The position numbers and the translations under genes were made by a program. A stretch of DNA of 32,295 nucleotides from Octopus sinensis (Eukaryota). Position 1 is the stretch's first letter. Every line of letters starts with the position of its first letter. Positions 1-27,699 of the stretch are shown here, one piece after another. Below the pieces are notes generated by a model. The model was not told where the DNA came from and did no database searches. It worked only from the letters and a program-made list of their open reading frames with translations. Where the stretch lies: positions 1 through 32,295 of the forward strand of contig NW_021832896.1 of NCBI RefSeq assembly GCF_006345805.1, read 5' to 3'.

Positions 1-1539
1 GTTTTCAGGTTAGAAAATGTCAAAATATTCAAATTGTACTTGAAAAACAAAAAAAAATTTTGTTGACTCTTAGATAATTATAAGCTATATGAGTGATCAT
101 AAGCTTATATTTACACAAGAGATCACTAAATTCTCAAAAGTTTTCAGGTTAGAAAATGTCAAAATATTTCAAATGTGTATTTGAAAAATAAAAAAAATTT
201 CGTTGTCTCTTAGGAAAATATAAGCTATATGAGTGATAAAAAGCTTATATTTATCCAAAAGATCACTAAATTCTCAAAAGTTTTCAGGTGAGAAAATGTC
301 AAAATATTTCAAATGTGTACTTGAAAAAAAAAAAAATTTCGTTGTCTCTTAGGAAAATATAAGCAATATGAGTGATAATAACCTTATATTTATCCAAGAG
401 ATCACTAAATTCTCAAAAGTTTTCAGGTTAGAAAAGTCAAAATTTTTCGAATGTGTACTTGAAAAACAAAAAAAAATTTTTGTTGTCTCTTAGATAATTA
501 TAAGCTATATGAGAGATAATAAGCTTATATTTACACAAGAGATCACTAAATTCTCAAATTTTTCAGGTTAGAAAATGTCAAAATATTTCAAATGTGTACT
601 TGAAAAACAAAAAAAATTTTGTGATCTGTTAGGTAAATATGAGCTATATGAATGATAAGCTTATATTTATCCAAGAGATCACCAAATTCTCAAAAGTTTT
701 CAGGTTAGAAAATGTGAAAATATTTCAAATGTGTACTTGAAAAAAAAAAAAAATTTCGTTGTCTCTTAGGAAAATATAAGCTATATGAGTGATGATAAGC
801 TTATATTTATGCAAGAGATCACAAAATTCTGAAATGTTTTCAGGTTAGAAAATGTCAAAATATTTCAAATATGTACTTGAAAGAGAAAAAAAAATTCGTT
901 GTCTCTTAGGAAAATATAAGCTATATGAGTGATAATAAGCTTATATTTATCCAAGTGATCACTAAATTCTCAAAAGTTTTCAGGTTAGAAAATGTCAAAA
1001 TATTTCAAATGTGTACTTCAAAAACAAAAAAAAATTTTGTGATCTGTTAGGTAAATTTTCGCTATATGAGTGATAGTATGCTTATATTTATCCAAGAGAT
1101 CACCAAATTCTCAAAAGTTTTCACGTTAGAAAATTTCAAAATATTTCAAATGTGTACTTGAAAAACAAAAAAAAAATTTGTGATCTGTTAGGTAAATATA
1201 AAATATATGAGTGATAATAAGCTTATATTTATCCAAGAGATCACTAAATTCTCAAACGTTTTCAGGTTAGAAAAGGTGAAATATTTCAAAGGTGTACTTG
1301 AAAAACAAAAAACAATTTTGTGATCTGTTATGTAAATATAAGCTATATGAATGATAAGCTTATATTTATCCAAGAGATCACTAAATTCTCAAAAGTTTTC
1401 AGGTTATACAATGTCAAAATATTTCAAATGTGTACTTGAAAAATAAAAAAAAATTTTGTGATCTGTTAGGTAAATATAAGCTATATGAGTGATAACAAGC
1501 TTATATTTATCCAAGAGATCACTAAATTCTCAAAAGTTT

Positions 1540-4500
1540 TCAGGTTATACAATGTCAAATTATTTCAAATGTGTACTGGAAAAACAAAAAAAAATTTCGT
1601 TTTCTCTTAGGAAATTATAAGCTATATGAGTGATAATAAGCTTATATTTATCAAAGAGATCACTAAATTCTCAAAAGTTTTCATGCTAGAAAATGTCAAA
1701 TATTTCAAATGTGTACTTGAAAAACAAAAAAAAATTTTGTGATCTGTTTGGTAAGAATAAGCTATATGAGTGTTAATAAGCTTATATTCATCCAAGAGAT
1801 CATTAAATTCTCAAAAGTTTTCAGGTTAGAAAATGTCAAAATATTCAAAATGTACTTGAAAGCCAAAGAAAAATTTCGTTGTCACTTAGGAAAAATAAAG
1901 CTATATGAGTGATAATAAGCTATATTTATCCAAGAATTCACTAAATTCTCAAACGTTTTCATGTTAGAAAATATCAAAATATTTCAAATGTGTACTTGAA
2001 AAACAAAAAACAATTTTGTGATCTATTAGGTAAATTTATGCTATATGCGTGATAGTAAGCTTATATTTATCCAAGAGATCACTCACTAAATTCTCAAAAG
2101 TTTTCAGGTTAGAAAATGTCAAAATATTACAAATGTGTACTTGAAAAACAAAAAAAAATTTGTTGTCTCTTAGATAATTATAAGCTATATGAGTGATAAT
2201 AAGCTTATATTTACACAAGAGATTACTAATTCTCAACGTTTTCAGGTAAGAAAATGTCAAAATATTTCAAATGTGTACTTGAAAAACAAAAAAAAAATTT
2301 GTTGTCTCTTAGGAAAATATAAGCTATACGAGTGATATGATAATAGCTTATATTTATCCAAGAGATCACTAAATTCTCAAAAGTTTTCAGGTTAGAAAAT
2401 GTCAAAATATTTCAAATGTGTACTTGAAAAACAAAAAAAAATTTTGTGATCTGTTAGGTAAATATAAGCTATATGAGTGATAATAAGCTTATATTTATCC
2501 AAGAGATCACTAAATTCTCAAAAGTTTTCAGGTTAGAAAATGTCAAAATATTTCAAATGTGTACTTGAAAAACAAAAAAAAATTTCGTTGTCTCTTAGGA
2601 AAATATAAGCTATATGAGTGATAATAAGCTTATATTTATCCAAGAGATCACTAAATTCTCAAAAGTTTTCAGGTTAGAAAATGTCAAAATATTTCAAATG
2701 TGTACTTAAAAACAAAAAATAACTTTCGTTGTCTCTTTGGAAAATATAAGCTGCTACGAGTGATAATAAGCTTATTATTACCAAGAAGATCACTAAATTC
2801 TCAAAAGTTTTCAGGTTATAAAATGTCAAAATATTTCAAATATGTGTACTTGAAAAACAAAAAAAAATTTTGTGATCCATTAGGTAAATATAAGCTATAT
2901 GAATGTAAGCTAATATTAACCAAGAGATCACTAAATTCTCAAAAGTTTTCAGGTTAGAAAATGTCAAAATATTTCAAATGTGTACTTGAAAAACAGAAAA
3001 ACATTTTCAGATCTGTTAGGTAAATATAAGCTATATGAGTGATAATAGCTTATATTTATCCAAGAGATCACTAATTACTCAAAAGTTTTCAGGTTAGAAA
3101 ATGTCAAATTATTTCAAATGTGTACTGGAAAAACAAAAAAAAATTTCGTTTTCTCTTAGGAAATTATAAGCTATATGAGTGATAATAAGCTTATATTTAT
3201 CAAAGAGATCACTAAATTCTCAAAAGTTTTCATGCTAGAAAATGTCAAATATTTCAAATGTGTACTTGAAAAACAAAAAAAAATTTTGTGATCTGTTTGG
3301 TAAGAATAAGCTATATGAGTGATAATAAGCTTATATTCATCCAAGAGATCATTAAATTCTCAAAAGTTTTCAGGTTAGAAAATGTCAAAATATTTCAAAT
3401 ATGTACTTGAAAGCCAAAGAAAAATTTCGTTGTCACTTAGGAAAATAAAAGCTATATGAGTGATAATAAGCTTATATTTATCCAAGAATTCACTAAATTC
3501 TCAAACGTTTTCATGTTAGAAAATATCAAAATATTTCAAATGTGTACTTGAAAAACAAAAAACAATTTTGTGATCTTTAGGTAAATTATGCTATATGAGT
3601 GATATAGTAAGCTTATATTTATCCAAGAGATCACTAAATTCTCAAAAGTTTTCAGGTTAGAAAATGTCAAAATATTACAAATGTGTACTTGAAAACAAAA
3701 AAAAATTTGTTGTCTCTTAGATAATTATAAGCTATATGAGTGATAATAAGCTTATATTTACACAAGAGATTACTAAATTCTCAAACGTTTTCAGGTAAGA
3801 AAATGTCAAAATATTTCAAATGTGTACTTGAAAAACAAAAAAAAAATTTGTTGTCTCTTAGGAAAATATAAGCTATACGAGTGATAATAAGCTTATATTT
3901 ATCCAAGAGATCACTAAATTCTCAAAAGTTTTCAGGTTAGAATTTGTCAAAATATTTCAAATGTGTACTTGAAAAACAAAAAAAAATTTTGTGATCTGTT
4001 AGGTAAATATAAGCTATATGAGTGATAATAAGCTTATATTTATCCAAGAGATCACAAAATTCTCAAAAGTTTTCAGGTTATAATATGTCAAATTATTTCA
4101 AATGTGTACTTGAAAAACAAAAAAAAATTTCGTTGTCTCTTAGGAAAATATAAGCTATATGAGTGATAATAAGCTTATATTTATCCAAGAGATCACTAAA
4201 CTCTCAAAATTTTTCAGGTTAGAAGATGTCAAAATATTTCAAATGTGTACTTAAAAAACAAAAATAACTTTCGTTGTCTCTTTGGAAAATATAAGCTATA
4301 CGAGTGATAATAAGCTTATATTTATCCAAGAGATCACTAAATTCTCAAAAGTTTTCAGGTTATAAAATGTCAAAATATTTCAAATGTGTACTTGAAAAAC
4401 ACAAAAAAAAATTTGTGATCCATTAGGTAAATATAAGCTATATGAAAGAAGCTAATATTTAACAAGAGATCACTAAATTCTCAAAATTTTTCAGGTTAGA

Positions 4501-7500
4501 AAATGTCAAAATATTTCAAATGTGTACTTGAAAAACAGAAAAACATTTTCAGATCTGTTAGGTAAATATAAGCTATATGAGTGATAATAAGCTTATATTT
4601 ATCCAAGAGATCACTATTATTTCTCAAAAGTTTTCAGGTTAGAAAATGTCAATTATTTCAAATGTGTACTGGAAAAACAAAAAAAAATGTCGTTCTCTTA
4701 GGAAAATATAAGCTATATGAGTGATAATAAGCTTATATTTATCAAAGAGATCACTAAATTCTCAAAAGTTTATGCTAGAAAATGTCAAATATTTCAAATG
4801 TGTACTTGAAAAACAAAAAAAAATTTGTGATCTGTTTGGTAAGAATAAGCTATATGAGTGATAATAAGCTTTAATTCATCCAAGAGATCATTAAATTCTC
4901 AAAAGTTTTCAGGTTAGAAAATGTCAAAATATTTCAAATATGTACTTGAAAGCCAAAGAAAAATTTCGTTGTCACTTAGGAAAATAAAAGCTATATGAGT
5001 GATAATAAGCTTATATTTATCCAAGAATCACTAAATTCTCAAACGTTTTCATGTTAGAAAATATCAAAATATTTCAAGTTGTACTTGAAAAACAAAAAAC
5101 AATTTTGTGATCTATGTTAGGAAATTATGCTATATGAGTGATAGTAAGCTTATATTTATCCAAGAGATCACTAAATTCTCAAAAGTTTTCAGGTTAGAAA
5201 ATGTCAAAATATTACAAATGTGTACTTGAAAAACAAAAAAAAAATTGTTGTTCTCTTAGATAATTATAAGCTATATGAGTGATAATAAGCTTATATTTAC
5301 ACAAGAGATTACTAAATTCTCAAACGTTTTCAGGTAAGAAAATGTCAAAATATTTCAAATGTGTGTACTTGAAAAACAAAAAAAAATTTGTGGTCTTAGG
5401 AAAATATAAGCTATACGAGTGATAATAAGCTTATATTTATCCAAGAGATCACTAAATTCTCAAAAGTTTTCAGGTTAGAATTTGTCAAAATATTTCAAAT
5501 GTGTACTTGAAAAAAAAACAAAAAAAAATTTTGTGATCTGTTAGGTAAATATAAGCTATATGAGTGATAATAAGCTTATATTTACAAGAGATCACAAAAT
5601 TCTCAAAAGTTTTCAGGTTATAATATGTCAAATTATTTCAAATGTGTACTTGAAAAACAAAAAAAAATTTCGTTGTCTCTTAGGAAAATATAGCTATATG
5701 AGTGATAATAAGCTTATATTTATCCAAGGAGATCACTAAACTCTCAAAATTTTTCAGGTTAGAAGATGTCAAAATATTTCAAATGTGTACTTAAAAAAAC
5801 AAAAAATAACTTTCGTTGTCTCTTGGAAAATATAAGCTATAGAGTGATAATAAGCTATATTTATCCAAGAGATCACTAAATTCTCAAAAGTTTTCAGGTT
5901 ATAAAATGTCAAAATATTTCAAATGTGTACTTGAAAAACAAAAAAAAATTTTGTGATCCATTAGGTAAATATAAGCTATATGAATGTTAAGCTAATATTT
6001 AACCAAGAGATCACTAAATTCTCAAAATTTCAGGTTAGAAACTCTCAAAATATTTCAAATGTGTACTTGAAAAACAAGAAAAAATTTTGTGATCTGTTAG
6101 GTAAATATGAGCTATATGAGTGATAATAAACATATATTTATCCAAGAGATCACTAAATTCTCAAAAGTTTTCAGGTTAGAAAATGTCAAAATATTTCAAA
6201 TGTGTACTTAAAAAAAAAAAACAATTTTGTGATCTGTTAGGTAAATTTTAGCTATATGAATGATAATAAGCTAATATTTATCGAAGAGATCACTAAATTC
6301 TCAAAAGTTTTCAGGTTACAAAATGTCAAAACATTTGAAATGTGTACTTGAAAAACAAAATAAAAATTTGTGATCTGTTACGTAAATATAAGATACATGA
6401 GTTATGATAAGCTTAAATTTATCCAAGAGATCACTAAATTCTCAAAAGTTTTCAGGTTAGAAAATGTCAAATTATTTCAAATGTGTACTGGAAAAACAAA
6501 AAAAAATTTCGTTTTCTCTTAGGAATTATAAGCTATATGAGTGATAATAAGCTTATATTATCAAAGAGATCACTAAATTCTCAAAAGTTTTCATGCTAGA
6601 AAATGTCAAATATTTCAAATGTGTACTTGAAAAACAAAAAAAATTTTGTGATCTGTTGGTAAGAATAAGCTATATGAGTGATAATAAGCTTATATTCATC
6701 CAAGAGATCATTAAATTCTCAAAAGTTTTCAGGTTAGAAAATGTCAAAATATTTCAAATATGTACTTGAAAGCCAAAGAAAAATTTCGTTGTCACTTAGG
6801 AAAATAAAAGCTATATGAGTGATAATAAGCTTATATTTATCCAAGAATTCACTAAATTCTCAAACGTTTTCAGGTTAGAAAATATCAAAATATTTCAAAT
6901 GTGTACTTGAAAAACAAAAAACAATTTTGTGATCTATTAGGTAAATTTATGCTATATGAGTGATAGTAAGCTTATATTTATCCAAGAGATCACTAAATTC
7001 TCAAAAGTTTTCAGGTTAGAAAATGTCAAAATATTTCAAATGTGTACTTGAAAAACAAAAAAAAAATTTGTTGTCTCTTAGATAATTATAAGCTATATGA
7101 GTGATAATAAGCTTATATTTACACAAGAGATTACTAAATTCTCAAACGTTTTCAGGTAAGAAAATGTCAAAATATTTCAAATGTGTACTTGAAAAAAAAA
7201 AAAAATTTGTTGTCTCTTAGGAAAATATAAGCTATACGAGTGATAATAAGCTTATATTTATCCAAGAGATCACTAAATTCTCAAAAGTTTTCAGGTTAGA
7301 ATTTGTCAAAATATTTCAAATGTGTACTTGAAAAACAAAAAAAAATTTTGTGATCTGTTGGTAAATATAAGCTATATGAGTGATAATAAGCTTATATTTA
7401 TCCAGAGATCACAAAATTCTCAAAAGTTTTCAGGTTATAAAATGTCAAAATATTTCAAATGTGTACTTGAAAAACAAAAAAAAATTTCGTTGTCTCTTAG

Positions 7501-8270
7501 GAAAATATAAGCTATATGAGTGATAATAAGCTTATATTTATCCAGAGATCACTAAACTCTCAAAATTTTTCAGGTTAGAAGATGTCAAAATATTTCAAAT
7601 GTGTACTTAAAAAACAAAAATAACTTTCGTTGTCTCTTAGGAAAATATAAGCTATACGAGTGATAATAAGCTGATATTTATCCAAGAGATCACTAAATTC
7701 TCAAAAGTTTTCAGGTTATAAAATGTCAAAATATTTCAAATGTGTACTTGAAAAACAAAAAAAAATTTTGTGATCTATTAGGTAAATATAAGCTATATGA
7801 ATGTTAAGCTAATATTTAACCAAGAGATCACTAAATTCTCAAAAGTCTTCAGGTTAGAAACTCTCAAAATATTTCAAATATGTACTTGAAAAACAAGAAA
7901 AAATTTTGTGATCTGTTAGGTAAATATGAGCTATATGAGTGATAATAAACATATATTTATCCAAGAGATCACTAAATTCTCAAAAGTTTTCAGGTTAGAA
8001 AATGTCAAAATATTTCAAATGTGTACTTAAAAAACAAAAAACAAATTTGTGATCTGTTAGGTAAATTTTAGCTATATGAATGATAATAAGCTAATATTTA
8101 TCGAAGAGATCACTAAATTCTCAAAAGTTTTCAGGTTACAAAATGTCAAAATATTTGAAATGTGTACTTGAAAAACAAAATAAAAATTTGTGATCTGTTA
8201 CGTAAATATAAGATACATGTGTTATGATAAGCTTAAATTTATCCAAGAGATCACTAAATTCTCAAAAGTT
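1540..8270 (+). repeat. Higher-order repeat: four related copies with 11-, 11- and 13-monomer spacing
   Basis: AGCCAAAGAA occurs at 1861, 3412, 4951 and 6771 (spacing 1551, 1539, 1820). ACTGGAAA occurs at 1575, 3124, 4668 and 6487. ACTCTCAAAATAT occurs at 6041 and 7860. Confidence 0.88.
2440..2516. repeat. Intra-monomer imperfect inverted repeat (31-bp arms, 15-nt spacer); example copy, present in most monomers
   Basis: Left arm 2440-2470 is AATTTTGTGATCTGTTAGGTAAATATAAGCT. The reverse complement of right arm 2486-2516 is AATTTAGTGATCTCTTGGATAAATATAAGCT. They match at 27/31. Confidence 0.93.
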
Positions 8271-8739
8271 TTCAGGTTAGAAAATGTCAAAATATTTCAA
8301 AAGTGTACTTGAAAAACAAAAAAAAAATTTAGTGATCTGTAAGGTAAATATAAGCTATATGAGTGATAATAAGCTTATATTTATCCAAGAGATCACAAAA
8401 TTCTCAAAAGTTTTCTGGTTAGAAAATGTCAAAATATTTCAAATGTGTACTTGAGAAACAAAAAAAAATTTTCTGATCTGTTAGGTAAATATAAGCTATA
8501 TGAGTGATAATAAATTGATATTTATCGAAGAGATCACTAATTACTCAAAAGTTTTCAGGTTAGAAAATGCCAAAATATTTCAAATGTGTACTTGAAAAAC
8601 AAAAAGAAAATTTCGTGATCTGTTAGGTAAATATAAGCTATATTAGTGAATATAAGCTTATATTTATCAAAGAGATCACAAAATTCTCAAAAGTTTTCAG
8701 GTTAGAAAATGTCAAAATGTTTCAAATGTGTACTTCAAA

Positions 8740-9790
8740 AACAAAAAAAAAATTTTGTGATCTGTTAGGTAAATATAAGCTATATGAATGATAAGATTAT
8801 ATTTATGCAAGAGATCACTAAACTCTCAAAATTTTTCAGGTTAGAAAATGTCAAAATATTTCAAATGTGTACTTCAAAAACAAAAAAAACTTTCGTTGTC
8901 TCTTAGGAAAATATAAGCTATATGAGTGATAATAAGCTTATATTTATCCAAGAGATCACTAAATTCTCAAAAGTTTTCAGGTTAGAAAATGTCAAAATAT
9001 TTCAAATGTGTACTTGAAAAACAAAAAAAAATTTTGTGATCTGTTAGGTAAATATAAGCTATATAAATGATAAGCTTATATTTATCCAAGAGATCACTAA
9101 ATTCTCAAAAGTTTTCAGGTTAGAAAATGTCAAAATATTTCAAATGTGTACTTGAAAAACAAAAAAAAATTTTGTGATCTGTTAGGTAAATATAAGCTAT
9201 ATGAATGATAAGCTTATATTTATCCAAGAGATCACTAAATTCTCAAAAGTTTTCAGGTTAGAAAATGTCAAAATATTTCAAATGTGTACTTGAAAAACAA
9301 AAAAAATTTCGTTGTCTCTTAGGAAAATATAAGCTATATGAGTGATAATAAGCTTATATTTATCCAAGAGATCACTAAATTCTCAAAAGTTTTCAGGTTA
9401 GAAAATGTCAAAATATTTCAAATGTGTACTTGAAAAACAAAAAAAAATTTTGTGATCTGTTAGGTAAATATAAGCTATATAAATGATAAGCTTATATTTA
9501 TCCATGAGATCACTAAATTCTCAAAAGTTTTCAGGTTAGAGAATGTCAAAATACTTCAAATGTGTACTTGAAAAACAAAAAAAAAATTTGTGATCTGTTA
9601 GGTAAATATAAGCTATATGAATGATAAGATTATATTTATCCAAGAGATCACTAAACTCTCAAAATTTTTCAGGTTAGAAAATGTCAAAATATTTCAAATG
9701 TGTACTTCAAAAACAAAAAAAACTTTCGTTGTCTCTTAGGAAAATATAAGCTATATGAGTGATAACAAGCATATATTTATACAAGAGATC
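8740..9790 (+). repeat. Short trimeric higher-order repeat (one subtype-B monomer plus two 137-bp subtype-A monomers, ~415 bp)
   Basis: B-type CGTTGTCTC at ~8894, ~9310 and ~9727 alternates with pairs of units carrying the 3-bp-deleted spacer ATGATAAG. AACTCTCAAAATTTTT occurs at 8821 and 9654. Confidence 0.75.
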
Positions 9791-10380
9791 ACTAAATTCT
9801 CAAAAGTTTTCAGGCTAGAAAATGTCAAAATATTTCAAATGTGTACTTGAAAAACAAAAAAGAATTCTGTGGTCTGTCAGGTAAATATAAGCTATATGAG
9901 TGATAATAAGCTTATATTTATCCAAGAGATCACTAAATTCTCAAAAGTTTTCAGGTTAGAAAATGTCAAAATATTTCAAATGTGTACTTGAAAAACAAGA
10001 AAAAATTTTGTGATCTGTTAGGTAAATATAAGCTATATGAATGATAATAAGCTTATATTTATCCAAGAGATCACTAAATTCTCAAAAGTTTTCAGGTTAG
10101 AAAATGTCAAAATATTTCATATGTGTACTTGAAAAACAAAAAAAAATTTTGTTGTCTCTTAGGAAAATATAAGCTATATGAATGATAATAAGCTTATGTT
10201 TATCCAAAAGATCACTAAATTCTCTAAATTTTCAGGTTAGAAAATGTCAAAATATTTCAAATGTGTACTTGAAAAACAAAAAAAAATTTCGTTCTCTCTT
10301 GGGAAAATATAAGCAATATGAGTGAAAATAAGCTTATATTTATCCAGGAGATCACTAAATTCTCAAAAGTTTTCAGGTTA

Positions 10381-10440
10381 GAAAATGTCAAAATATTGTT
10401 TTTTGTTTTTTATGTACACACTTGAAATATTTTGACATTT
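10381..10440. other. Orientation-switch (inversion) junction within the satellite array
   Basis: The forward monomer ends GAAAATGTCAAAATATT (10397) and continues directly as reverse monomer GTTTTTTGTTTTTTATGTACAC. ATT (10395-10397) can be assigned to either side. Confidence 0.92.
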
Positions 10441-10859
10441 TCTAACCTGAAAACTTTTGAGAATTTAGTGATCTGTTGGATAAATATAAGTTTATTAACA
10501 ATCATATAGCTTATATTTACATAAGAGATCACAAAATTTTTTCTTGTTTTTCAAGTACACATTTGAAATATTTTGACAGTTTGTAACCTGAAAACGTTTT
10601 AGAATTTAGTGATCTCCTGGATAAATATAAGCTTATTATCACTCATATAGCTTATATTTTCAAAAGAGACAACGAAATTTTTTTTTGCTTTTCAAGTACA
10701 CATTTGAAATATTTTGACATTTCCTAACCTGAAAAATTTTGAGAATTTAGTGATCTCTTGGATAAATATAAGCTTATTATCACTCTTATAGCATATATTT
10801 ACCTAAAAGATCACAAAATTTTTTTTTGTTTTTGAAGTACACATTTGAAATATTTTGAC

Positions 10860-13800
10860 ATTTTCTAACCTGAAAACTTTTGAGAATTTAGTGATGTCTT
10901 CGATAAATATAAGCTTATTATCACCCATATAGCTTATATTTACCTAACAGAACACAAAATTGTTTTTTGTTTTTCAAGTACACATTTGAAATATTTTGAC
11001 ATTTTCTAACCTGAAAACTTTTGAGAATTTAGTGATCTCTTGGATAAACATAAGCTTATTATCACTCATATAGCTTATATTTACCTAACAGAACACAAAA
11101 TTGTTTTTTGTTTTTCAAGTACATATTTGAAATATTTTGACATTTTGAAACCTGAAAACTTTTGAGAATTTAGGGATCTTGTGGATAAGTATAAGCTTAT
11201 TATCACTCATATAGCTTATATTTTCGTAAGTGACAACGAAAATTTTTTTGTTTTTCAAGTACACATTTGAAATATTTTGACATTTTCTAACCCGAAAACG
11301 TTTGAGAATTTAGCGATCTCTTGGATAAATATAAGCTTATTATCACTCATATAGCTTATATTTTCATAAGAGACAACGAAATTTTTTTTTGTTTTTCAAG
11401 TACACATTTGAAATATTTTGACATTTTCTAAACTGAAAACTTTTGAGAATTTAGTGATCTCTTGGATAAATATAAGCTTATTATCACTCATATAGCTTAT
11501 ATTTTCCCATGAGACAACGAAATTGTTTTTTGTTTTTCAAGTACACATTTGAAATATTTTGACATTTTCTAACATGAAAACTTTTGAGAATTTAGTGATC
11601 ACTTGGATAAATACAAGCTTATTATCTCTCATATAGCTTATTCTTACCTAATAGATCACAAAATTTTTTTTTGTTTTTCAAGTACACATTTGAAATATTT
11701 TGACATTTTCTAACCTGAAAACTTTTGAGAATTTAGTGATCTCTTGGATAAGTATAACCTTCTTATCTCTCTTATAGCTTATATTTACCTAACAGATCAC
11801 AAAATTGTTTTTTGTTTTTCAAGTACACATTTGAAATATTTTGACATTTTCTAACCTGAAAACTTTTGAGAATTTAGTGATCACTTGGGTAAATATAAGC
11901 TTATTATCTCTCATATAGCTTATTCTACCTAATAGATCACAATTTTTTTTGTTTTTCAAGTACACATTGAAATATTTTGACATTTTCTAACCTGAAAACT
12001 TTGAGAATTTAGTGATCTCTGGATAAATATAAGCTTATATATCACTCATATAGCTTATATTTACCTAACAGACAACAATTTTTTTTTGTTTTTGAAGTAC
12101 ACATTTGAAATATTTTGACATTTTCTAACCGAAATCTTTTGAGAATTTAGTGATCGTGTCTTCGAAATATAAGCTTATTATCACCCATATAGCTTATATT
12201 TACCTAACAGAACACAAAATGTTTTTTTGTTTTTCAAGTACACATTTGAAATATTTTGACATTTTTAACCTGAAAACATTTGAGAATTTAGTGATCTCTT
12301 GGATAAATATAAGCTTATTATCACTCATATAGCTATATTTCTAACAGACACAAATTGTTTTTTGTTTTTCAAGTACATATTTGAAATATTTTGACATTTT
12401 GTAACCTGAAAACCTTTGAGAATTTAGTGATCTTTTGGATAAGTATAAGCTTATTATCACTCATATAGCTTATATTTTCGTAAGTGACAACGAAAATTTT
12501 TTTGTTTTTCAAGTACACATTTGAAATATTTTGACATTTTCTAACCCGAAAACTTTTGAGAATTTAGCGATCTCTTGGATAAATATAAGCTTATTATCAC
12601 TCATATAGCTTATATTTTCATAAGAGACAACGAATTTTTTTTTGTTTTTCAAGTACACATTTGAAATATTTTGACATTTCTAACCTGAAAACTTTTGAGA
12701 ATTTGTATCTCTTGCTTGGATAAATAAAGCTTATTATCACTCATATAGCTTATATTTTCCCATGAGACAACGAAATTGTTTTTTGTTTTTCAAGTACACA
12801 TTTCAAATATTTTGACATTTTCTAACATGAAAACTTTTGAGAATTTAGTGAACACTTGGATAAATACAAGCTTATTATCTCTCATATAGCTTATATTTAC
12901 CTAACAGATCACAAAATTTTTTTTTGTTTTTCAAGTACACATTTGAAATATTTTGACCTTTTCTAACCTGAAAACTTTTGAGAATTTAGTGATCTCTTGG
13001 ATAAATATAAGCTTATTATCACTCATATAGCTTATATTTACCTAACAGACAACAAAATTTTTTTTTGTTTTTCAAGTGCACATTTGAAATATTTTGACAT
13101 TTTCTAACCTGGAAACTTCTTAGAATTTAGTGATCTCCTTGATAAATATAATCTTATTATCTCACATATAGCTTATATTCACCTAACAGACAACACAATT
13201 TTTTTTGTTCTTCAAGTACACATTTGAAATATTTTGAAATTTTCTAACCTGAAAACTTTTGAGAATTTAGTGATCTCTTGGATAAATATAAGTTTATTAT
13301 CACTCATATAGCTTATAGTTACCTAAAAGACAACAAAATTTTTTTTTGTTTTTGAAGTACACATTTGAAATATTTTGACATTTCTAACCGAAATCTTTTG
13401 AGAATTTAGTGATCTCTTGGATAAATATAAGCTTATTATCACTCATATAGCTATATTTTCTAAGAGACAACGAAATTTTTTTATTTTTGAAGTACACATT
13501 TGAAATATTTTGACATTTTCTAACATGAAAACTTTTGAGAATTTAGTGATCATTGGATAAATATAAGCTATTATCTCTCATATAGCTTATTCTTACCTAA
13601 TAGATCACAAAATTTTTTTTGTTTTTCAAGTACACATTTGAAATATTTTGACATTTCTAACCTGAAAACTTTGAGAATTTAGTGATCTCTTGATAAGTAT
13701 AAGCTTATTATCACTCATATAGCTTATATTTACCTAACAGATCACAAAATTTTTTTTTGTTTTTCAAGTACACATTTGAAATATTTTGACATTTTCTAAC

Positions 13801-15460
13801 CTGAAAACTTTGAGAATTTAGTGATCTCTTGGATAAATATAAGCTTATTATCACTCATATAGCTTATTTTACCTAATAGATCACAAATTTTTTTTGTTTT
13901 TCAAGTACACATTTGAAATATTTTGACATTTCTAACCTGAAAACTTTTGAGAATTTAGTGATCTCTTGGATAAATATAAGCTTATTATCACTCATATAGC
14001 TATATTACCTAACAGACACAAAATTTTTTTTTGTTTTTGAAGTACACATTTGAAATATTTTGACATTTTCTAACCGAAAACTTTGAGAATTTAGTGATCT
14101 CTGCGATAAATATAAGCTTATTATCACTCATATAGCTTATATTTACCTAACAGAACACAAAATTGTTTTTTGTTTTTCAAGTACACATTTGAAATATTTT
14201 GACATTTTCTAACCTGAAAACATTTGAGAATTTAGTGATCTCTTGGATAAATATAAGCTTATTATCACTCATATAGCTTATATTTACCTAACAGAAACAA
14301 AATTTTTTTTTGTTTTTCAAGTACACATTTGAAATATTTTGACATTTTCTAACCTGAAAACTTTTGAGAATTTAGTGATCTCTTGGATAAATATAAGCTT
14401 ATTATCACTCATATAGCTTATATTTTCGTAAGTGACACGAAATTTTTTTTGTTTTTCAAGTACACATTTGAAATATTTTGACATTTTCTAACCTGAAAAC
14501 TTTTGAGAATTTAGTGATCTCTTGGATAAATATAAGCTTATTATCACTCATATAGCTTATATTTTCCTAAGAGACAACGAAATTTTTTTTGTTTTTCAAG
14601 TACACATTTGAAATATTTTGACATTTTCTAACCTGAAAACTTTTGAGAATTTAGTGATCTCTTGGATAAATATAAGCTTATTATCACTCATATAGCTTAT
14701 ATTTTCCTAAGAGACAACGAAATTTTTTTTGTTTTTCAAGTACACATTTGAAATATTTTGACATTTTCTAACCTGAAAACTTTTGAGAATTTAGTGATCT
14801 CTTGGATAAATATAAGCTTATTATCACTCATATAGCTTATATTTACCTAACAGATCACAAAATTTTTTTTTGTTTTTCAAGTACACATTTGAAATATTTT
14901 GACATTTTCTAACCTGAAAACTTTTGAGAATTTAGTGATCTCTTGGATAAATATAAGCTTATTATCACTCATATAGCTTATTATTACCTAACAGACAACA
15001 AATTTTTTTTTTGTTTTTCAAGTACACATTTGAAATATTTTGACATTTTCTAACCTGAAAACTTTTGAGAATTTAGTGATCTCTTGATAAATATAATCTT
15101 ATTATCTCACATATAGCTTATATTCCTAACAGACAACACAATTTTTTTTTGTTTTTCAAGTACACATTTGAAATATTTTGAAATTTTCTAACCTGAAAAC
15201 TTTTGAGAATTTAGTGATCTCTTGGATAAATATAAGTTTATTATCACTCATATAGCTTATAGTTACCTAAAAGACAACAAAATTTTTTTTTGTTTTTGAA
15301 GTACACATTTGAAATATTTTGACATTTTCTAACCCGAAATCTTTTGAGAATTTAGTGATCTCTTGGATAAATATAAGCTTATTATCACTCATATAGCTTA
15401 TATTTTCCTAAGAGACAACGAAATTTTTTTTATTTTTGAAGTACACATTTGAAATATTTT
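10860..15460 (-). repeat. Overlapping 9-monomer (~1.26 kb) and 14-monomer (~1.95 kb) duplications
   Basis: TCACCCATAT at 10921/12181; TTTTCGTAAGTGAC at 11221/12475/14423; AACATGAAAA at 11571/12825/13522; ATCTTATTATCTCACAT at ~13151/~15097. Confidence 0.75.
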
Positions 15461-16319
15461 GACATTTTATAACCTGAAAACTTTTGAGAATTTAGTGATC
15501 TCTTGGATAAATATAAGCTTTTTTTCACTCATATAGCTTATATTTACCTAACAGACAACAAATTTTTTTTTTTTTTTGAAGTACACATTTGAAATATTTT
15601 GACATTATCTAACCGAAAACTTTTGAGAATTTAGTGATCTCTTGGATAAATATAAGCTTATTATCACTCATATAGCTTATATTTTCCTAAGAGACGACGA
15701 AATTTGTTTTATTTTTCAAGTACACATTTGAAATATTTTGACATTTTCTAACCTGAAAACTTTTGAGAATTTAGTGATCTCTTGGATAAATATAAGCTTC
15801 TTATCACTCATATAGCTTATATTTACATAAAAGATCACAAATTTTTTTTTTGTTTTTCAAGTTCACATTTGAAATATTTTGACATTTTATAACCTGAAAA
15901 CTTTTGAGAATTTAGTGATCTCTTGGATAAATATAAGCTTATTATCACTCATATAGCTTGTAATTACCTAACAGACAACAAATTTTTTTTTGTTTTTCAA
16001 GTACACATTTGAAATATTTTGACATTTTCTAACCTGAAAACTTTTGAGAATTTAGTGATCTCTTGGATGAGCTAATTATCACTCATGTAGCATATATTTA
16101 CCTTACAGATCACAAAATTCTTTTTTGTTTTTCAAGTACACATTTGTAATATTTTGAATTTTTCTAACCTGAAAACTTTTGAGAATTTAGTGATCTCTTG
16201 GGTAAATATAAGCTTATTATCACACTATTACTTATATTTATCTAAGATCACAAAATTTTTTTTTGTTTTTCAAGTACACATTTGAAATATTTTGACATTT
16301 TCTAACCTGAAAACTTTTG

Positions 16320-18170
16320 AGAATTTAGTGATCTCTTGGATAAGCTTATTATCATTCATATAGCTTATATTTACCTAACGGATCACAAAATTTTTTTTTT
16401 ATTCAAGTACACATTTGAAATATTTTGAATTTTCTAGACTGAAAACTTTTGAGAAGTTAGTGATCTGTTGGATAAATATAAGCATATTATCATTCATATA
16501 GCTTATATTTACGTTACAGATGACAAAATTTTTTTTTGTTTTTCAAGTACACATTTGAAATATTTTGACATTTTCTAACCTGAAAACTTTTGAGAATTTA
16601 GTGATCTCTTGATAAGCTTATTATCATTCATATAGCTTATATTTACCTAACGGATCACAAAATTTTTTTTTTATTCAAGTACACATTTGAAATATTTTGA
16701 ATTTTCTAACTGAAAACTTTTGAGAAGTTAGTGATCTGTTGGATAAATATAAGCATATTATCATTCATATAGCTTATATTACCTTAACAGATGAACAAAA
16801 TTTTTTTTTGTTTTTCAAGTAGATATTTGAAATATTTTGACATTTTCTAACCTGAAAAGCTTATAGTTACCTAACAGAACACAAAATTTTTTTTTGTCTT
16901 TCAAGTACACATTTGAAATATTTTGACATTTTCTAACCTGAAAAATATGAGAATTTAGTGATCTCTTGGATAAATATAAGCTTATTATCACTCATATAGC
17001 TTATATTTACCTAAAAGAAAAAAAAAATTTTTTTTGTTTTTCAAGTACACATTTGAAATATTTTGACATTTTCTAACCTGAAAACTTCTTAGAATTTAGT
17101 GATCTCCTTGATAAATATAAGCTAATTATCTCTCATATAGCTTATATTCACCTAACAGACAACAAAATTTATTTTGTTCTTCCAGTACAGATTTGAAATA
17201 TTTTGAAATTTTCTAACCTGAAATCTTTTGAGAATTTAGTGATCTCTTGGATAAATATAAGCTTATTATCACTCATATAGCTTATATTTAACTAACAGAT
17301 CTCAAAATTTTTTTTTGTTATTCAAGTAAACATAGGAAATATTTTGAATTTTCTAACCTGTAAACTTTTGAGAATTTAGTGATCTCTTGGGTAAATATAA
17401 GCTTATTATCACTCAGTTAACTTATATTTATCTAATAGATCAGAAATTTTTTTTTTGTTTTTCAAGTACACATTTGAAATATTTTGATTTTTTCTAACCT
17501 GAAAATTTTTGAGAATTTAGTGATCTCTTGGATAAATATAAGCATATTATCACTCATATAGCTTATATTTACACACTGAAATCTTCTTTAAATATTTTGA
17601 AATATTTTGACAATTTCTAAACTGAAAACTTTTGAGAATTTAGTGATCTCTTGGATAAGCTAATTATCACTCATATAGCTTATATTTACCTAACGGATCA
17701 CAAAATTTTTTTTTTTCACGTACACATTTGAAATATTTTGAATTTTCTAAACTGAAAACGTTTGAGAAATTAGTGATCTGTTGGATAAATATAAACGTAT
17801 TATCACTCATATAGCTTATATTTACCTTACAGATGACAAAATTTTTTTTCTTTTTTCAAGTACACATTTGAAATATTTTGACATTTTCTAAACTGAAAAC
17901 TTTTGAAAATTTAGTTATCTCTTGGATAAGCTTATTATCACTCATATAGCTTATATTTACCTAACGGATCACAAAATTTTTTTTTTTCAAGTACACATTT
18001 GAAATATTTTGAATATTCTAAACTGAAAACTTTTGAGAAATTAGTGATCTCTTGGATAAATATAAGCTTATTATCACTCATATAGCTTATATTTACCTTA
18101 CAGATCACAAAATTTTTTTTTGTTTTTCAAGTACACATTTGAAATATTTTGACATTTTCTAACCTGAAAA
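16320..18170 (-). repeat. Two pairs of a ~272-bp dimer (6-bp-deleted monomer with TAACGGATC plus a partner monomer)
   Basis: GATAAGCT...TAACGGATCAC units occur at ~16340, ~16612, ~17655 and ~17925. Each is followed by a GAGAAGTTAG or GAGAAATTAG variant unit. Confidence 0.7.
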
Positions 18171-18299
18171 CTTTTGATAAATTATTGATCTCTTGGATGA
18201 GCTTATTATCACTCATATATCTTATAGTTACCTAACAGATCACAAATTTTTTTTTGTCTTTCAAGTACACATTTGAAATATTTTGACATTTTCTAACCT

Positions 18300-21200
18300 G
18301 AAATGTTTTGAGAATTTAGTGATCTCTTGGATATATATATCAGCTTATTATCACTCATATAGCTTATATGTACCTAACAGATCACAAATTTTTTTTTGTT
18401 TCTCAAGTACACATTTGCAATATTTTGAATTTTCTAAACTGAAAACTCTTGAGAATTTAGTGATCTCTTGGGTAAATATAAGCTTATTATCACTCAGTTA
18501 ACTTATATTTATCTAACAGATCACAAAATTTTTTTTGTTTTTCAAGTACACATTTGAAATATTTTGACATTTTCTAACCTGAAAACTTTTGAGAATTTAG
18601 TGATCTCTTGGATAAATATAAGCTTATTATCACTCATATAGCTTATATTCACCTAACATACCACAAATTTTTTTTTTGTCTTTCAAGTACACATTTGAAA
18701 GGTTTTGACATTTTCTAACCTCAAAACTTTTGAGAAGTTAGTGTTCTCTTGGATAAATATAAGCTTATTATCACTCATATAGCTTATATTTACCAAAGAG
18801 TGAACAAAAATTTTTTTTGTTTTTCAAGTACACATTTGAAATATTTTGACATTTTCTAACCTGAAAACTTTTGAGAATTAGTGATCTCTTGGATGAGCTT
18901 ATTATCACTTATATAGCTTATATTTACCTTACAGACCACAGAATTTTTTTTTGTTTTTCAAGTACACATTTGAAGTAATTTGACATTTTCTAACCTGAAA
19001 ACTTTTGAGAATTTAGTGATCTCTTGGAAAAATATAAGCTTATTATCACTCATAGCTTATATTTACCCAACAGATCACAAAATTTTTTTTGTTTTCAAGT
19101 AGACATTTGAAATATTTTGACATATTCTAACCTGAAAACTTTTGAGAATTTAGTGATCTCTTGGATAAATATAAGCTTATTATCACTCATATAGCTTATA
19201 TTTACCTAAGAGATAACAAATTTTTTTTTTGTTTTTCAAGTACACATTTGAAATATTTTGAAATTTTCTAACCTGAAAACTTTTGAGAATTCAGTGATCT
19301 CTTGCATAAAGATAAGCTTATTATCGCTCATATAGCTAATATTTACCTAACAGATCACAAAATTTTATTTTGTTTTTCAAGTACACATTTGAAATAATTT
19401 GACTTATTCTAACCTGAAAACTTTTGACAATTTAGTGATCTCTTGGATAAATATAAGATTATTATCACTCATATAGCTTATATTTACCTAAAAGATCACA
19501 AATTTTTTTTTGTTTTTCAAGTAAACATTTGAAATATTTTGTCATATTCTAACCTGAAAACTACTGAGAATTTAGTGATTCTTTGATAAATATAAGCTAT
19601 TATCACTCATATAGCTTATATTTCCCTAATAGATCACAAAATTTTTTTTTGTTTTTCAAGTACACATTTGACATTTTGACTTTTCTAACCTGAAAACTTT
19701 TGAGAATTTAGTGATCTCTTGGATAAATATAAGCTTATTATCACTCAGTTAACTTATATTTATCAACAGATCACAAAATATTTTTTTTCTTTTTCAAGTA
19801 CACATTTGAAACATTTTGAAATTTTCTAACCTGAAAACTTTTGAGAATTTAGTGATCTCTTGGATAAATAAGCTTATTATCACTCAGTTAACTTATATTT
19901 ATCTGACAGATCACAAATTTTTTTTTGTTTTTCAAGTAGACATTTGAAATATTTTGACATTTTCTAACCTGAAAACTTTTGAGAATTTAGTGATCTCTGG
20001 GATAAATATAAGCTTATTATCACTCATATAGCTTATAGTTACCTAACAGATCACAAAATTTTTTTTTGTCTTTGAAGTACAAATTTGAAATATTTTGACA
20101 TTTTCTAACCTGAAAATTTTTCAGAATTTAGTGATCTCTTGGATAAATATAAGCTTTATATCACTCATATAGCTTATATTTACCTTACAGATCACATTTT
20201 GAATTTTCTAAAGTGAAAACTTTTAAGAATTTAGTGATCTCTTGGATAAGCTTATTATCACTCATATAGCTTATATTTACCTAACAGATCACAAAATTTT
20301 TTTTTGTTTTTCAAGTACACATTTGAAATAATTTGACATTTTCTAACCTGAAAACTTTTGAGAATTTAGTGATCTCTTGGGTAAATATATACTTATTATC
20401 ACTCAGTTAACTTATATTTATCTAACAGATCATAAATTTTTTTTTTGTTTTTCAAGTACACATTTGAAATATTTTGACATTTTCTAACCTGAAAACTTTT
20501 GAGAATGTAATGATCTCTTAGATAAATATAAGCTTATTATCACTCATATAGCTTATATTTACCTAACAGACAACAAATTTTTTTTTCTTTTTCAAGTACA
20601 CGTTTGAAATATTTGACATTTTCTCACCTGAAAACTTTTAGAATTTAGTGATCTCTTGGATAAATATAAGCTTATTATCACTCATATAGCTTATATATAC
20701 CTAACAGATCACAAAATACTTTTTTTGTCTTTGAAGTACACATTTGAAATATTTTGACATTTTCTAACCTGAAAACTTTTGAGAATTTAGTGATTTCTTG
20801 GATAAATATAAGCTTTTTATCACTCATATAGCTTATATTTACCTTACAGATCACATTTTGAATTTTCTAAACTGAAAACTTTTAAGAATTTAGTGATCAC
20901 TTGTGTAAATATATGCTTATTATCACTCAGTTAACTTATTTTATCTAACAGATCATAAATTTTTTTTTGTTTTTCAAGAAACATTTTGAAATATTTTGTA
21001 TTTTCTAACCTGAAAACTTTTGAGAATTTAATGATCTCTTGGATAAATATAAGCTAATTATCAACATATAGCTTATATTTACCTAACAGACAACAAATTT
21101 TTTTTTCTTTTTCAAGTACACATTTGAAATATTTGACATTTTCTTGCCTGAAAACTTTTTAGAATTTAGTGATCTCTTGGTAAATATAAGCTTATTATCA

Positions 21201-24200
21201 CTCATATAGCTTATATTTACTAAGAGATAACAAATTTTTTTTGTTTTTCAAGTACACCATTTGAAATATTTTGAAATTTTCTAACTGAAAACTTTTGAGA
21301 ATTCAGTGATCTCTTGGATAAGATAAGCTTATTATCACTCATATAGCTAATATTTACTAACAGATCACAAATTTTTTTTGTTTTCAAGTACACATTTGAA
21401 ATATTTTGAATTATTCTAACCTGAAAACTTTTGACAATTTAGTGATCTCTTGGATAAATATAAGATTATTATCACTCAGCTATATTAATAGTAAATTTTA
21501 TTCCCTAAAAGATCACTCTTTTTTTTTGTTTTTCAAACATTAAGTCAATTGGAATATTTGTCATATTCTAACCTGAAAACTACTGAGAATTTAGTGATCT
21601 CTTTGATAAATATAAGCATATTATCACTCATATAGCTTATATTTCCCTAATAGGTCACAAAATTTTTTTTTGTTTTTCAAGTACACATTTGAAATATTTT
21701 GACTTTTTCTAACCTGAAAACTTTTGAGAATTTAGTGATCTCTTGGATAAATATAAGCTTATTATCACTCAGTTAACTTATATTTATCTAACAGATCACA
21801 AAATATTTTTTTTTGTTTTTCAAGTACACATTTGAAACATTTTGAAATTTTCTAACCTGAAAACTTTTGAGAATTTAGTGATCTCTTGGATAAACATAAG
21901 CTTATTATCACTCAGTTAACTTATATTTATCTGACAGATCACAAATTTTTTTTTGTTTTTCAAGTAGACATTTGAAATATTTTGACATTTTCTAACCTGA
22001 AAACTTTTGAGAATTTAGTGATCTCTGGGATAAATATAAGCTTATTATCACTCATATAGCTTATAGTTACCTAACAGATCACAAAATTTTTTTTTGTCTT
22101 TGAAGTACAAATTTGAAATATTTGACATTTCTAACCTGAAAGTTTTGAGAATTTAGTGATCTCTTGGATATATATATCAGCTTATTATCACTCATATAGC
22201 TTATATGTACCTAACAGATCACAAATTTTTTTGTTTTTCAAGTACACATTTGAAATATTTTGAATTTTCTAACCTGAAAACTTTTGAGAATTTAGTGATC
22301 TCTTGGGTAAATATAAGCTTATTATCACTCAGTTAACTTATATTTATCTAACAGATCACAAAATTTTTTTTTGTTTTTCAAGTACACATTTGAAATATTT
22401 TGACATTTTCTAACCTGAAAACTTTTGAGAATTTAGTGATCTCTTGGATAAATATAAGCTTATTATCACTCATATAGCTTATATTCACCTAACATACACA
22501 AATTTTTTTTTGTCTTTCAAGTACACATTTGAAAGGTTTTGACATTTTTAACCTCAAAACTTTTGAGAAGTTAGTGTTCTCTTGGATAAGATTAAGCTTA
22601 TATCACTAAGCTTATAGCTTATATTTCCCAAAGAGTGAACAAAAATTTTTTTTGTTTTTCAAGTACACATTTGAAATACTTTGACATTTTCTAACCTGAA
22701 AACTTTTGAGAATTAGTGATCTCTTGGATGAGCTATTATCACTTATATAGCTTATATTTACCTTACAGACCACAGAATTTTTTTTTTTTTCAAGTACACA
22801 TTTGAAGTAATTTGACATTTTCTAACCTGAAAACCTTTGAGAATTTAGTGATCTCTTGGAAAAATATAAGCTTATTATCACTCATATAGCTTATATTTAC
22901 CCAACAGATCACAAAATTTTTTTTTGTTTTTCAAGTAGACATTTGAAATATTTTGACATATTCTAACCTGAAAACTTTTGAGAATTTAGTGATCTTGGAT
23001 AAATATAAGCTTATTATCACTCATATAGCTTATATTTACCTAAGAGATAACAAATTTTTTTTTGTTTTTCAAGTACCATTTGAAATATTTTGAAATTTTC
23101 TAACCTGAAAACTTTTGAGAATTCAGTGATCTCTTGCATAAAGATAAGCTTATTATCGCTCATATAGCTAATATTTACCTAACAGATCACAAAATTTTAT
23201 TTTGTTTTTCAAGTACACATTTGAAATAATTTGACTTATTCTAACCTGAAAACTTTTGACAATTTAGTGATCTCTTGGATAAATATAAGATTATTATCAC
23301 TCATATAGCTTATATTTACCTAAAAGATCACAAATTTTTTTTTGTTTTTCAAGTAAACATTTGAAATATTTTGTCATATTCTAACCTGAAAACTACTGAG
23401 AATTTAGTGATCTCTTTGATAAATATAAGCATATTATCACTCATATAGCTTATATTTCCCTAATAGATCACAAAATTTTTTTTTGTTTTTCAAGTACACA
23501 TTTGAAATATTTTGACTTTTTCTAACCTGAAAACTTTTGAGAATTTAGTGATCTCTTGGATAAATATAAGCTTATTATCACTCAGTAAACTTATATTTAT
23601 ATAACAGATCACCAAATATTTTTTTTGTTTTCAAGTAACATTTGAAACATTTTTGAATTTTCTAACCTGAAAACTTTTGAGAATTTAGTGATCTCTTGGA
23701 TAAACATAAGCTTATTATCACTCAGTTAATATATTTATCTGACAGATCACAAATTTTTTTTGTTTTTCAAGTAGACATTTGAAATATTTTGACATTTTCT
23801 AACCTGAAAACTTTGAGAATTTAGTGATCTCTGGGATAAATATAAGCTTATTATCACTCATATAGCTTATAGTTACCAACAGATCACAAAATTTTTTTTT
23901 GTTTTTGAAGTACAAATTTGAAATATTTGACATTTTCAACCTGAAAATTTTTCAGAATTTAGTGATCTCTTGGATAAATATAAGCTTTATTCACTCATAT
24001 AGCTTATATTTACCTTACAGATCACATTTTGACATTTTCTAACTGAAAACTTTTAAGAATTTAGTGATCTCTTGGATAAGCTTATTATCACTCATATAGC
24101 TTATATTACCTAACAGATCACAAAATTTTTTTTTGTTTTTCAAGTACACATTTGAAATAATTTGACATTTTCTAACCTGAAAACTTTTGAGAATTTAGTG

Positions 24201-27020: not shown

Positions 27021-27699
27021 TAAATATATGCTTATTATCAATCATATAGCTTATATATACCTAACAGATCACAACATTTTTTTTTCAAGTACACATTTGA
27101 AATATATTGAATTTTCTAACCTGAAAACTTTTGAGAATTTAGTGATCTCTTGGATAGATATAAGCTTATTATAACTCATATAGATTATATTCACCTAACA
27201 GACAACAAAATTTTTTTTGTTCTTCAAGTACACATTTGAAATATTTTGTCATATTCTAACCTGAAAACTTTTGAGAATTTAGTGTTCTCGTGGATAAATA
27301 TAAGCTTATTATCACTCATATAGCTTATATTTACCTTACAGATCACAGAAATTTTTTTTTGGTTTTCAAGTACACATTTGAAATATTTTGACATTCTCTA
27401 ACCTGAAAACCTTTGAGAATTTAGTCATCTCTTCGATAAATATAAGCTTATTATCACTTAGTTAACTTATATTTATCTAACAGATCACAAAATTTTTTTT
27501 TGTTTTTCAGGTACACATTTGAAATATTTTGACATTTTAGTGATCTCTTGGGTAAATGTAAGCTTATTATCACTCAGTTAACTTATATTTCTCTAACAGA
27601 TCACAAAATTTTTTTTAATTTTTCAAGTACACATTTGAAATATTTTGACATTTTCTAACCTGAAAACTTTTGAGAACTTAGTGACTCTTGGATAAATAT

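What the first reader, a model, noticed from the sequence alone, without database searches (positions are those of the whole stretch)
10370..10455. Clean polarity switch turns the array into a >20-kb imperfect palindrome with a 28-bp centre
Seen: the forward block ends CAGGTTAGAAAATGTCAAAATATT (10397) and its complement AATATTTTGACATTTTCTAACCTG starts at 10426. This leaves a 28-bp spacer made of reverse-strand satellite, with no inserted DNA. The join lies between look-alike motifs, CAAAATATT (forward) and CAAAATTG (a reverse-strand variant), with 3-bp ATT microhomology. It falls in the AAATATTT dyad of the monomer. Private variants on the two sides are not mirror images, so this is not a recent fold-back copy or a simple chimeric-read palindrome. 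Inference: an older microhomology-mediated inversion or template switch that could extrude a cruciform or act as a fragile site or homogenisation boundary.
Basis: partly seen in the sequence, partly recalled or inferred. Interest (0 to 1): 0.72.

Follow-up and report, generated by a model that had tools for sequence, protein, structure and literature searches.

The report
Ordinary strand switch in satellite DNA
A 141-base repeat array flips direction once in this contig, likely at an ordinary inversion breakpoint; the same repeat family flips at 13 other places on one chromosome-scale scaffold, so the "giant palindrome" follows from the flip and is probably not a special element.

Summary
The window is a whole unplaced 32-kb contig, 99.97% one AT-rich 141-bp satellite. 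It has one strand switch: forward monomers end at 10397, reverse monomers start at 10395 (shared ATT), with 49-bp perfect arms around a 28-bp centre. Variants are not mirrored and the junction is single-copy in the assembly.

It is ordinary. The same family on scaffold C29 has 13 gap-free switches in 255 kb (10 distinct joins). A random join gives a centre of 28 bp or less 40% of the time and an overlap of 3 bp or more 9% of the time. The arms are only 90% alike, the family background.

Two results favour a real local inversion over a chimera: the left arm's variant profile best matches the 6 kb just across the junction (rank 1 of 45 blocks), and the junction lies in the contig's cleanest sequence. 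Read-level proof is missing. The variant profile breaks near 16.7 kb, not at the junction, and 'older' does not follow from non-mirroring. Closest known: human beta-satellite/HSat3 strand switches and Tribolium macro-dyads, whose conserved, amplified inversion site is absent here. The scan earlier judged an inverted block in another satellite of this genome ordinary.

The parts
1..10397 (+). Left arm: about 74 head-to-tail 141-bp monomers, cut by the contig start; local 11-, 13- and 24-monomer duplications
10395..32295 (-). Right arm: the same satellite in opposite orientation (146 near-full monomers plus truncated ones), cut by the contig end; 9/14-monomer duplications near the junction, 25/13-monomer duplications beyond 18 kb
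10395..10397 (.). Junction: 3-bp exact overlap ATT (forward monomer positions 13-15 = reverse positions 46-44). Also readable as a 6-bp overlap (positions 7-12 with 50-45) plus a 2-nt duplication
   Evidence: the alternative reading is from the sequence
10349..10397 (+). Perfect inverted arm, 49 bp (left)
10426..10474 (-). Perfect inverted arm, 49 bp (right)
10398..10425 (-). 28-bp unpaired centre = reverse monomer positions 43-16; carries the common A-to-C variant at position 43 and three further substitutions (10411, 10413, 10421)
7582..11849 (.). Cleanest stretch of the contig: 30 consecutive monomers with 1 short indel outside the A-tract, spanning the junction
1..16700 (.). One variant domain that spans the junction (left arm plus the first 6 kb of the right arm); the profile changes near 16.7 kb

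Best explanation
This is a single-copy strand switch between two parts of one 141-bp satellite array, likely a real inversion breakpoint made by a microhomology-guided template switch or end-joining, and likely without any function. Shown: a forward monomer ending at position 15 is joined, with a 3-bp overlap and no insert, to a reverse monomer starting at position 46 that carries a common variant; both sides belong to the same variant domain; the family switches strand about once per 20 kb on C29. Inferred: a broken or stalled 3' end at the monomer's position 7-15 motif annealed to the look-alike motif on the opposite strand of another monomer of the same array and was extended or ligated. 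Any such join makes a long imperfect palindrome with a centre of at most 70 bp, so the arms and the 28-bp centre need no separate cause.
For: Not mirrored. The whole left arm correlates best in variant profile with the 44 monomers just across the junction: r=0.45, rank 1 of 45 blocks of the assembled family, next 0.34, median -0.05. Left bins correlate 0.18-0.32 with right bins up to 16.7 kb and -0.10 to 0.14 beyond. Variant T49C is in 23 of 74 left, 12 of 44 right-proximal, 1 of 102 right-distal and 104 of 1924 other monomers. The 20 monomers around the junction have 1 short indel against 164 in the other 200; essentially none of C29's 30-monomer windows is as clean (fraction 0.000). Switches are common in the family: 14 on C29, 13 of them not at a gap, in 255 kb; three pairs are copies of one another (99.0, 94.5 and 93.7% over 600 bp), so such joins were assembled more than once. 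Overlap of 3 bp or more in 4 of 12 distinct joins. Stochastic strand switches are described in human beta-satellite and HSat3 arrays.
Against: The contig is small, unplaced and pure satellite, with what look like residual read errors elsewhere (52 gap openings against 21 mismatches between two 2.8-kb copies). The reads behind the assembly could not be examined, so read support is untested. With 15-monomer bins the two proximal bins rank only 11-12 of 131 by correlation and 42-45 by distance. The last 20 monomers of the contig are also nearly free of indels (3 events), so cleanness is not unique to the junction. A 3-bp overlap alone has an 8.8% chance rate, and the family-level excess was read by eye against the consensus. 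The reciprocal breakpoint of a simple inversion (reverse ending near 16, forward starting near 47) is not among the joins mapped.
Confidence: 0.62

Rival explanations
1. Library or assembly artefact: two satellite molecules ligated in opposite orientation, or two reads mis-joined by the assembler, gave a junction that does not exist in the animal.
For: Whole 32-kb unplaced all-satellite contig. The junction is single-copy even at 3 mismatches. Indel excess elsewhere in the contig suggests imperfect consensus.
Against: A random partner from the family would not be expected to be the best variant match of 45 blocks. A join resting on one noisy read should be error-rich at the join, yet this is the cleanest stretch. 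An assembler joins like to like and would not readily create a join at a new monomer phase (inference). Other switches of the family occur in duplicate.
Confidence: 0.15
2. Real inversion join, but made by blunt non-homologous end-joining at a random phase; the 3-bp overlap and the look-alike motifs are coincidence in 75% AT DNA.
For: An overlap of 3 bp or more occurs in 8.8% of random joins; 8 of 12 distinct joins have 2 bp or less; breakpoints are scattered around the monomer.
Against: 4 of 12 joins have 3-7 bp (p=0.016; p=0.08 for 3 of 12). This join also admits a 6-bp overlap with a 2-nt duplication (0.85% chance for 6 bp or more). An independent deletion in the right arm ends within 4 bp of both breakpoints (positions 12/50 against 15/46).
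Confidence: 0.15
3. A functional or fragile 'macro-dyad' site: the inverted arms would extrude a hairpin or cruciform that organises (peri)centromeric chromatin or breaks recurrently, as proposed for Tribolium satellites.
For: The strand folds strongly (-107 kcal/mol per 300 nt; one-directional controls -33 +/- 5.7, n=26). Among 15 junction sites this one has the third-longest perfect arm and the shortest loop of the four with arms of 30 bp or more. The monomer has its own internal hairpin (-21 kcal/mol). A paper title says widely spaced, divergent inverted repeats become unstable in long single-stranded DNA (PMC10164571, search listing only).
Against: The Tribolium hallmark, one inversion site in thousands of 98-99% identical copies, is absent: this join is single-copy and 15 sites give 12 different joins. 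In yeast, 320-bp Alu inverted repeats stop blocking forks once the spacer exceeds 8 bp (PMC8053094 passages); here it is 28 bp with 90%-identical arms. With 300-nt windows centred on the breakpoints it ranks 8th of 15 in folding energy.
Confidence: 0.08

Closest known systems
Strand switches (inversion breakpoints) in human beta-satellite and HSat3 arrays (bioRxiv 10.1101/2021.07.12.452052, passages; bioRxiv 10.64898/2026.07.22.740206, passages)
   Same: Many switches inside one satellite family (over 200 in the CHM13 chr9 HSat3 and beta-satellite arrays). The second paper finds them randomly spread and calls them stochastic by-products of array expansion. Here: 13 in 255 kb on C29, at scattered monomer phases.
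   Different: Unrelated sequence and organism; this assembly is collapsed and gapped, so scaling with array length was not tested; the human switches rest on complete assemblies, this one has no read check.
Tribolium satellite macro-dyad symmetries (PMC13081366: abstract, outline and passages)
   Same: Kilobase inverted subarrays of one satellite that form palindrome-like arrays of up to tens of kb; monomers with internal dyads; hairpin or cruciform proposed but untested there too.
   Different: Tribolium inversion sites are of very few types, in thousands of 98-99% identical copies, in multi-megabase arrays on all chromosomes and confirmed on raw HiFi reads. This join is single-copy, the family has 12 different joins at 15 sites, and its chromosomal role is unknown.
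Fold-back read artefacts and breakage-fusion-bridge palindromes (general knowledge, recalled)
   Same: A head-on strand switch with a short unpaired centre.
   Different: Those have mirror-image arms; here mirrored monomer pairs differ by 9.7%, the family background.

Membership tests
Tandem satellite DNA | Long head-to-tail array of a fixed monomer with no coding content | tested here: met
   141-bp period, 74 + about 155 units, 99.97% of the window covered by the monomer
Stochastic satellite strand switches (beta-satellite/HSat3 type) | Many switches per array family at unrelated positions | tested here: met
   13 gap-free switches in 255 kb on C29, 1 on C8119, 1 here; 12 distinct joins
Stochastic satellite strand switches (beta-satellite/HSat3 type) | Switch number scales with array length across haplotypes | not testable with these tools
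   Only one collapsed assembly is held and it has no relatives
Tribolium macro-dyad symmetry | Kilobase-scale inverted subarrays of the same satellite | tested here: met
   10.4-kb and 21.9-kb arms
Tribolium macro-dyad symmetry | Inversion site conserved and amplified to many near-identical copies | tested here: not met
   Junction 31-mer found once at 0 and at 3 mismatches, 22-mer once; other joins occur once or twice. Caveat: the unassembled part of the array is unseen
Tribolium macro-dyad symmetry | Multi-megabase (peri)centromeric arrays on all chromosomes | not testable with these tools
   711 of 730 exact 28-mer copies map to the end of one scaffold and four small contigs; no FISH or CENP-A data
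Tribolium macro-dyad symmetry | Inversion site confirmed on raw long reads | tested here: inconclusive
   Only short contigs of public runs could be laid; see Tried and rejected
Fold-back read artefact / BFB palindrome | Private variants mirrored about the centre | tested here: not met
   Mirror pairs 9.7% diverged, no offset enriched; longest cross-arm match at 95% or more is 407 bp and not in mirror position
Fork-blocking quasi-palindrome (yeast Alu-QP type) | Spacer under 9 bp | tested here: not met
   Spacer 28 bp; threshold from PMC8053094 passages
Fork-blocking quasi-palindrome (yeast Alu-QP type) | Breaks or fork arrest measured at the site | not testable with these tools
   Needs break mapping or structure probing

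The most novel reading that the evidence does not exclude
The 141-bp family is a switch-rich satellite whose own monomer drives its rearrangement: the internal hairpin and the look-alike motifs at positions 7-15 and 42-50 guide template switches, and in the much larger unassembled array this or similar joins are amplified into Tribolium-like macro-dyads. That would be a structure-guided macro-dyad satellite outside beetles, in what earlier notes call an octopus.
Probability: 0.1. Interest if true: 0.5.

Novelty: new member of a known kind. Interest (0 to 1): 0.17.

Why it matters
As a single site it matters little: it is one more strand switch in a satellite that has many. The family-level picture is modestly useful. 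About one switch per 20 kb, with mappable breakpoints, duplicated joins and small fold-backs inside the monomer's hairpin, makes this array a compact test case for whether satellite inversions arise by microhomology-guided template switching. One 2026 paper states that macro-dyads are documented only in Tribolium; human data and this family show that inverted subarrays as such are widespread, so what is distinctive in Tribolium is the conserved, amplified inversion site.

Tried and rejected
Public-run check, inconclusive. The look-up of sequencing runs listed 23 runs, 15 holding part of the stretch, none half or more; 6 different runs were laid, all as short contigs, none known to be the assembled individual. 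At 97% likeness no contig crossed the junction in 4 of 4 runs (X1, X3, X12, X13). At 95%, X1 and X3 (one sample) had depth 250 and 15 over 10400-10419 and X2 and X6 had none; the records were not displayed and vanished at 97%, so they carry at least one difference. No assembled ordinary monomer comes within 2 edits of the 31-mer 10389-10419, so they may be near-copies of the junction or unassembled monomer variants. Holes in such contigs prove nothing, and neither result is used as evidence.

Searching other contigs for near-identical continuations of either flank gave only 94-98% matches to near-consensus monomers. A donor monomer giving a 9-bp overlap was looked for and not found in the close subfamily (0 copies; 6 in the diverged C9307 subfamily). 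Clustering of breakpoints at the base of the monomer hairpin (8 of 24 ends in 28 of 141 positions, read by eye) was post hoc and weak, so I dropped it. The switch across the C29 N-gap (16,992,763) was excluded from counts, and the many short 'switches' in C9307 and the one in C4711 (83-87% subfamily) were left out of the overlap count. Literature: searches for a described cephalopod 141-bp satellite found none in the listings; 'macro-dyad' occurs in 5 records, 4 listed, and in the two non-Tribolium ones only in the reference list. Supplements were not read. The scan's notes hold nothing on this junction.

Full report
What the window is. The window is the whole of unplaced contig G000:C9367 (32,295 bp) in a 2.72-Gb assembly of 13,516 pieces. 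It is 24-25% GC throughout, and GC and AT skew change sign once, near 10.4 kb. A 141-bp monomer covers 99.97% of it. Earlier scan notes call the animal an octopus; I did not test that.

The observation. Forward monomers end at 10397 (monomer position 15, numbering from window 2397) and reverse monomers begin at 10395 (position 46), sharing ATT, with no inserted DNA. The perfect arms are 49 bp around a 28-bp centre. Mirrored monomers differ by 9.7%, the same as any left-right pair (10.1%) or within-arm pair (9.8%), so this is not a fold-back copy. The junction occurs once in the assembly as a 31-mer at 0 and 3 mismatches and as a 22-mer.

How much is beyond chance. Any head-on join in a tandem array yields a long imperfect palindrome whose centre is at most 70 bp; 40% of random joins give 28 bp or less. 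An exact overlap of 3 bp or more arises in 8.8% of random joins of this monomer. In-register arm identity is about 90% at every scale from 100 to 3000 bp. The '>20 kb' is twice the left arm, which ends at the contig edge. The strand does fold strongly (-107 kcal/mol, z -22.8), but so do the other joins (-53 to -126 kcal/mol per 300 nt against -33 for one-directional array).

The family. An exact 28-mer of the monomer occurs 730 times; 711 of these lie in the sequence I mapped: the end of scaffold C29, this contig, and C983, C7467 and C8119. Palindromic pattern searches found further switches on C29, C8119, C4711 and C9307. Mapping 462 kb of C29 gave 255 kb of satellite with 14 switches, 13 not at an N-gap, about one per 20 kb. 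One switch in this 32-kb contig is what that rate predicts. Three pairs of C29 joins are copies (99.0, 94.5, 93.7% over 600 bp). The 99% pair lies in a 12-kb inverted match at 98.8% across a scaffold gap, which may be a second haplotype or a true inverted duplication; either way that join was assembled twice. With C8119 and this window there are 12 distinct joins at 15 sites, at scattered monomer phases.

Real or artefact. Non-mirroring does not exclude a ligation chimera, so I ran two other tests. First, variant profiles over 2,146 monomers: the left arm matches the 44 monomers just across the junction better than any other block of the family (r=0.45, rank 1 of 45, median -0.05), and the shared profile stops near 16.7 kb. 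With small 15-monomer bins the signal is weaker (rank 11-12 of 131). Second, short indels, which look like residual read errors because they outnumber substitutions between recent copies (52 against 21), are almost absent around the junction: 1 in 20 monomers against 164 in 200. C29 monomers near switches are also somewhat cleaner (0.67 against 0.90 events per monomer, p=0.003). My inference is that several reads anchor on the junction. The contig's last 20 monomers are clean too, so this is supporting, not decisive. I put the chance that the join is real at about 0.85.

Mechanism. The monomer carries look-alike motifs on opposite strands at positions 7-15 and 42-50, and a longer internal hairpin between about 44-78 and 87-120. 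The join reads either as a 3-bp overlap or as a 6-bp overlap with a 2-nt duplication. The base after the overlap matches a common variant (position 43 C) found in nearby right-arm monomers. Across the subfamily 4 of 12 distinct joins overlap by 3-7 bp (p=0.016 against chance; p=0.08 if one doubtful case is dropped; counts read by eye against the consensus), one of them exactly in the 7-bp hairpin-arm repeat. Two copies of a small fold-back inside the hairpin loop on C29 and a deletion of positions 13-49 copied seven times in the right arm point the same way. I therefore favour a microhomology-guided template switch or end-joining between two monomers of one array. This step is inferred. The reciprocal breakpoint was not found, and the age is undetermined.

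Function. Nothing here shows one. The junction is not where the variant profile changes, though recent tandem duplications do stay within each arm (12 of 12), as expected for exchange between direct repeats. For fragility, yeast inverted Alu repeats stop blocking forks above an 8-bp spacer (PMC8053094, passages); this site has 28 bp and 90%-identical arms. In its favour, it has the shortest loop of the four sites with perfect arms of 30 bp or more, and a paper seen only as a listing reports that spaced, divergent repeats can be unstable in long single-stranded DNA (PMC10164571).

Comparison with what is known. Human beta-satellite and HSat3 arrays hold hundreds of strand switches, described as stochastic by-products of expansion (passages): this works like those. 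Tribolium macro-dyads (PMC13081366, abstract and passages) share the geometry but are defined by conserved inversion sites in thousands of copies, which was tested and not met in this assembly. No description of this satellite turned up in two searches.

Verdict. A correctly observed, probably real, ordinary strand switch: a new member of a known kind, interest 0.17.

Noticed in passing
G000:C29:16,681,378-17,062,404 (loci L058-L059, L013-L049): The scaffold ends in 255 kb of this satellite with 14 strand switches, including a 0.7-kb inverted block present twice (16,971,177 and 16,976,244) and a 119-kb non-satellite interruption.
   Followed up: yes
G000:C29:16,835,354-16,889,178 against 16,992,816-17,036,307: A long inverted near-copy (96-99%) across scaffold gaps, sharing one switch and a 322-bp insert: a duplicated haplotype or a real inverted duplication.
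   Followed up: partly
G000:C29:16,710,043 and 16,710,779: Two copies of a 24-30-bp fold-back inside the monomer's hairpin loop, with the look of a local template switch at the 10-bp dyad at positions 87-96.
   Followed up: partly
window 20196, 20855, 24026, 24685, 26026, 26688, 28799: A deletion of monomer positions 13-49, amplified to seven copies in the right arm; its ends lie within 4 bp of the two inversion breakpoints.
   Followed up: partly
window about 16,700: The sharpest change in variant profile in the contig lies inside the reverse arm, beside a truncated monomer at 16,858-16,931, not at the strand switch.
   Followed up: partly
G000:C29:16,887,625, 16,904,096 and 16,994,050: A 322-bp GC-richer insert at the same monomer phase in three places, with an apparent 10-bp target duplication; SINE-like by appearance (recalled, not tested).
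   Followed up: no
G000:C9307 (82 kb) and C4711:1-1250: A diverged subfamily (83-87% to the window monomer) with its own duplicated fold-back joins and a complex composite repeat; in C4711 it abuts sequence that looks like a LINE reverse-transcriptase fragment (by eye, not tested).
   Followed up: no
public runs X1, X2, X3, X6, X12, X13: The conserved part of the monomer is present at very high word depth in runs labelled as three different organisms (A, B, C), and both subfamily continuations appear in X1, X2, X3 and X6, so the family is shared between organism labels and probably much larger than assembled.
   Followed up: no
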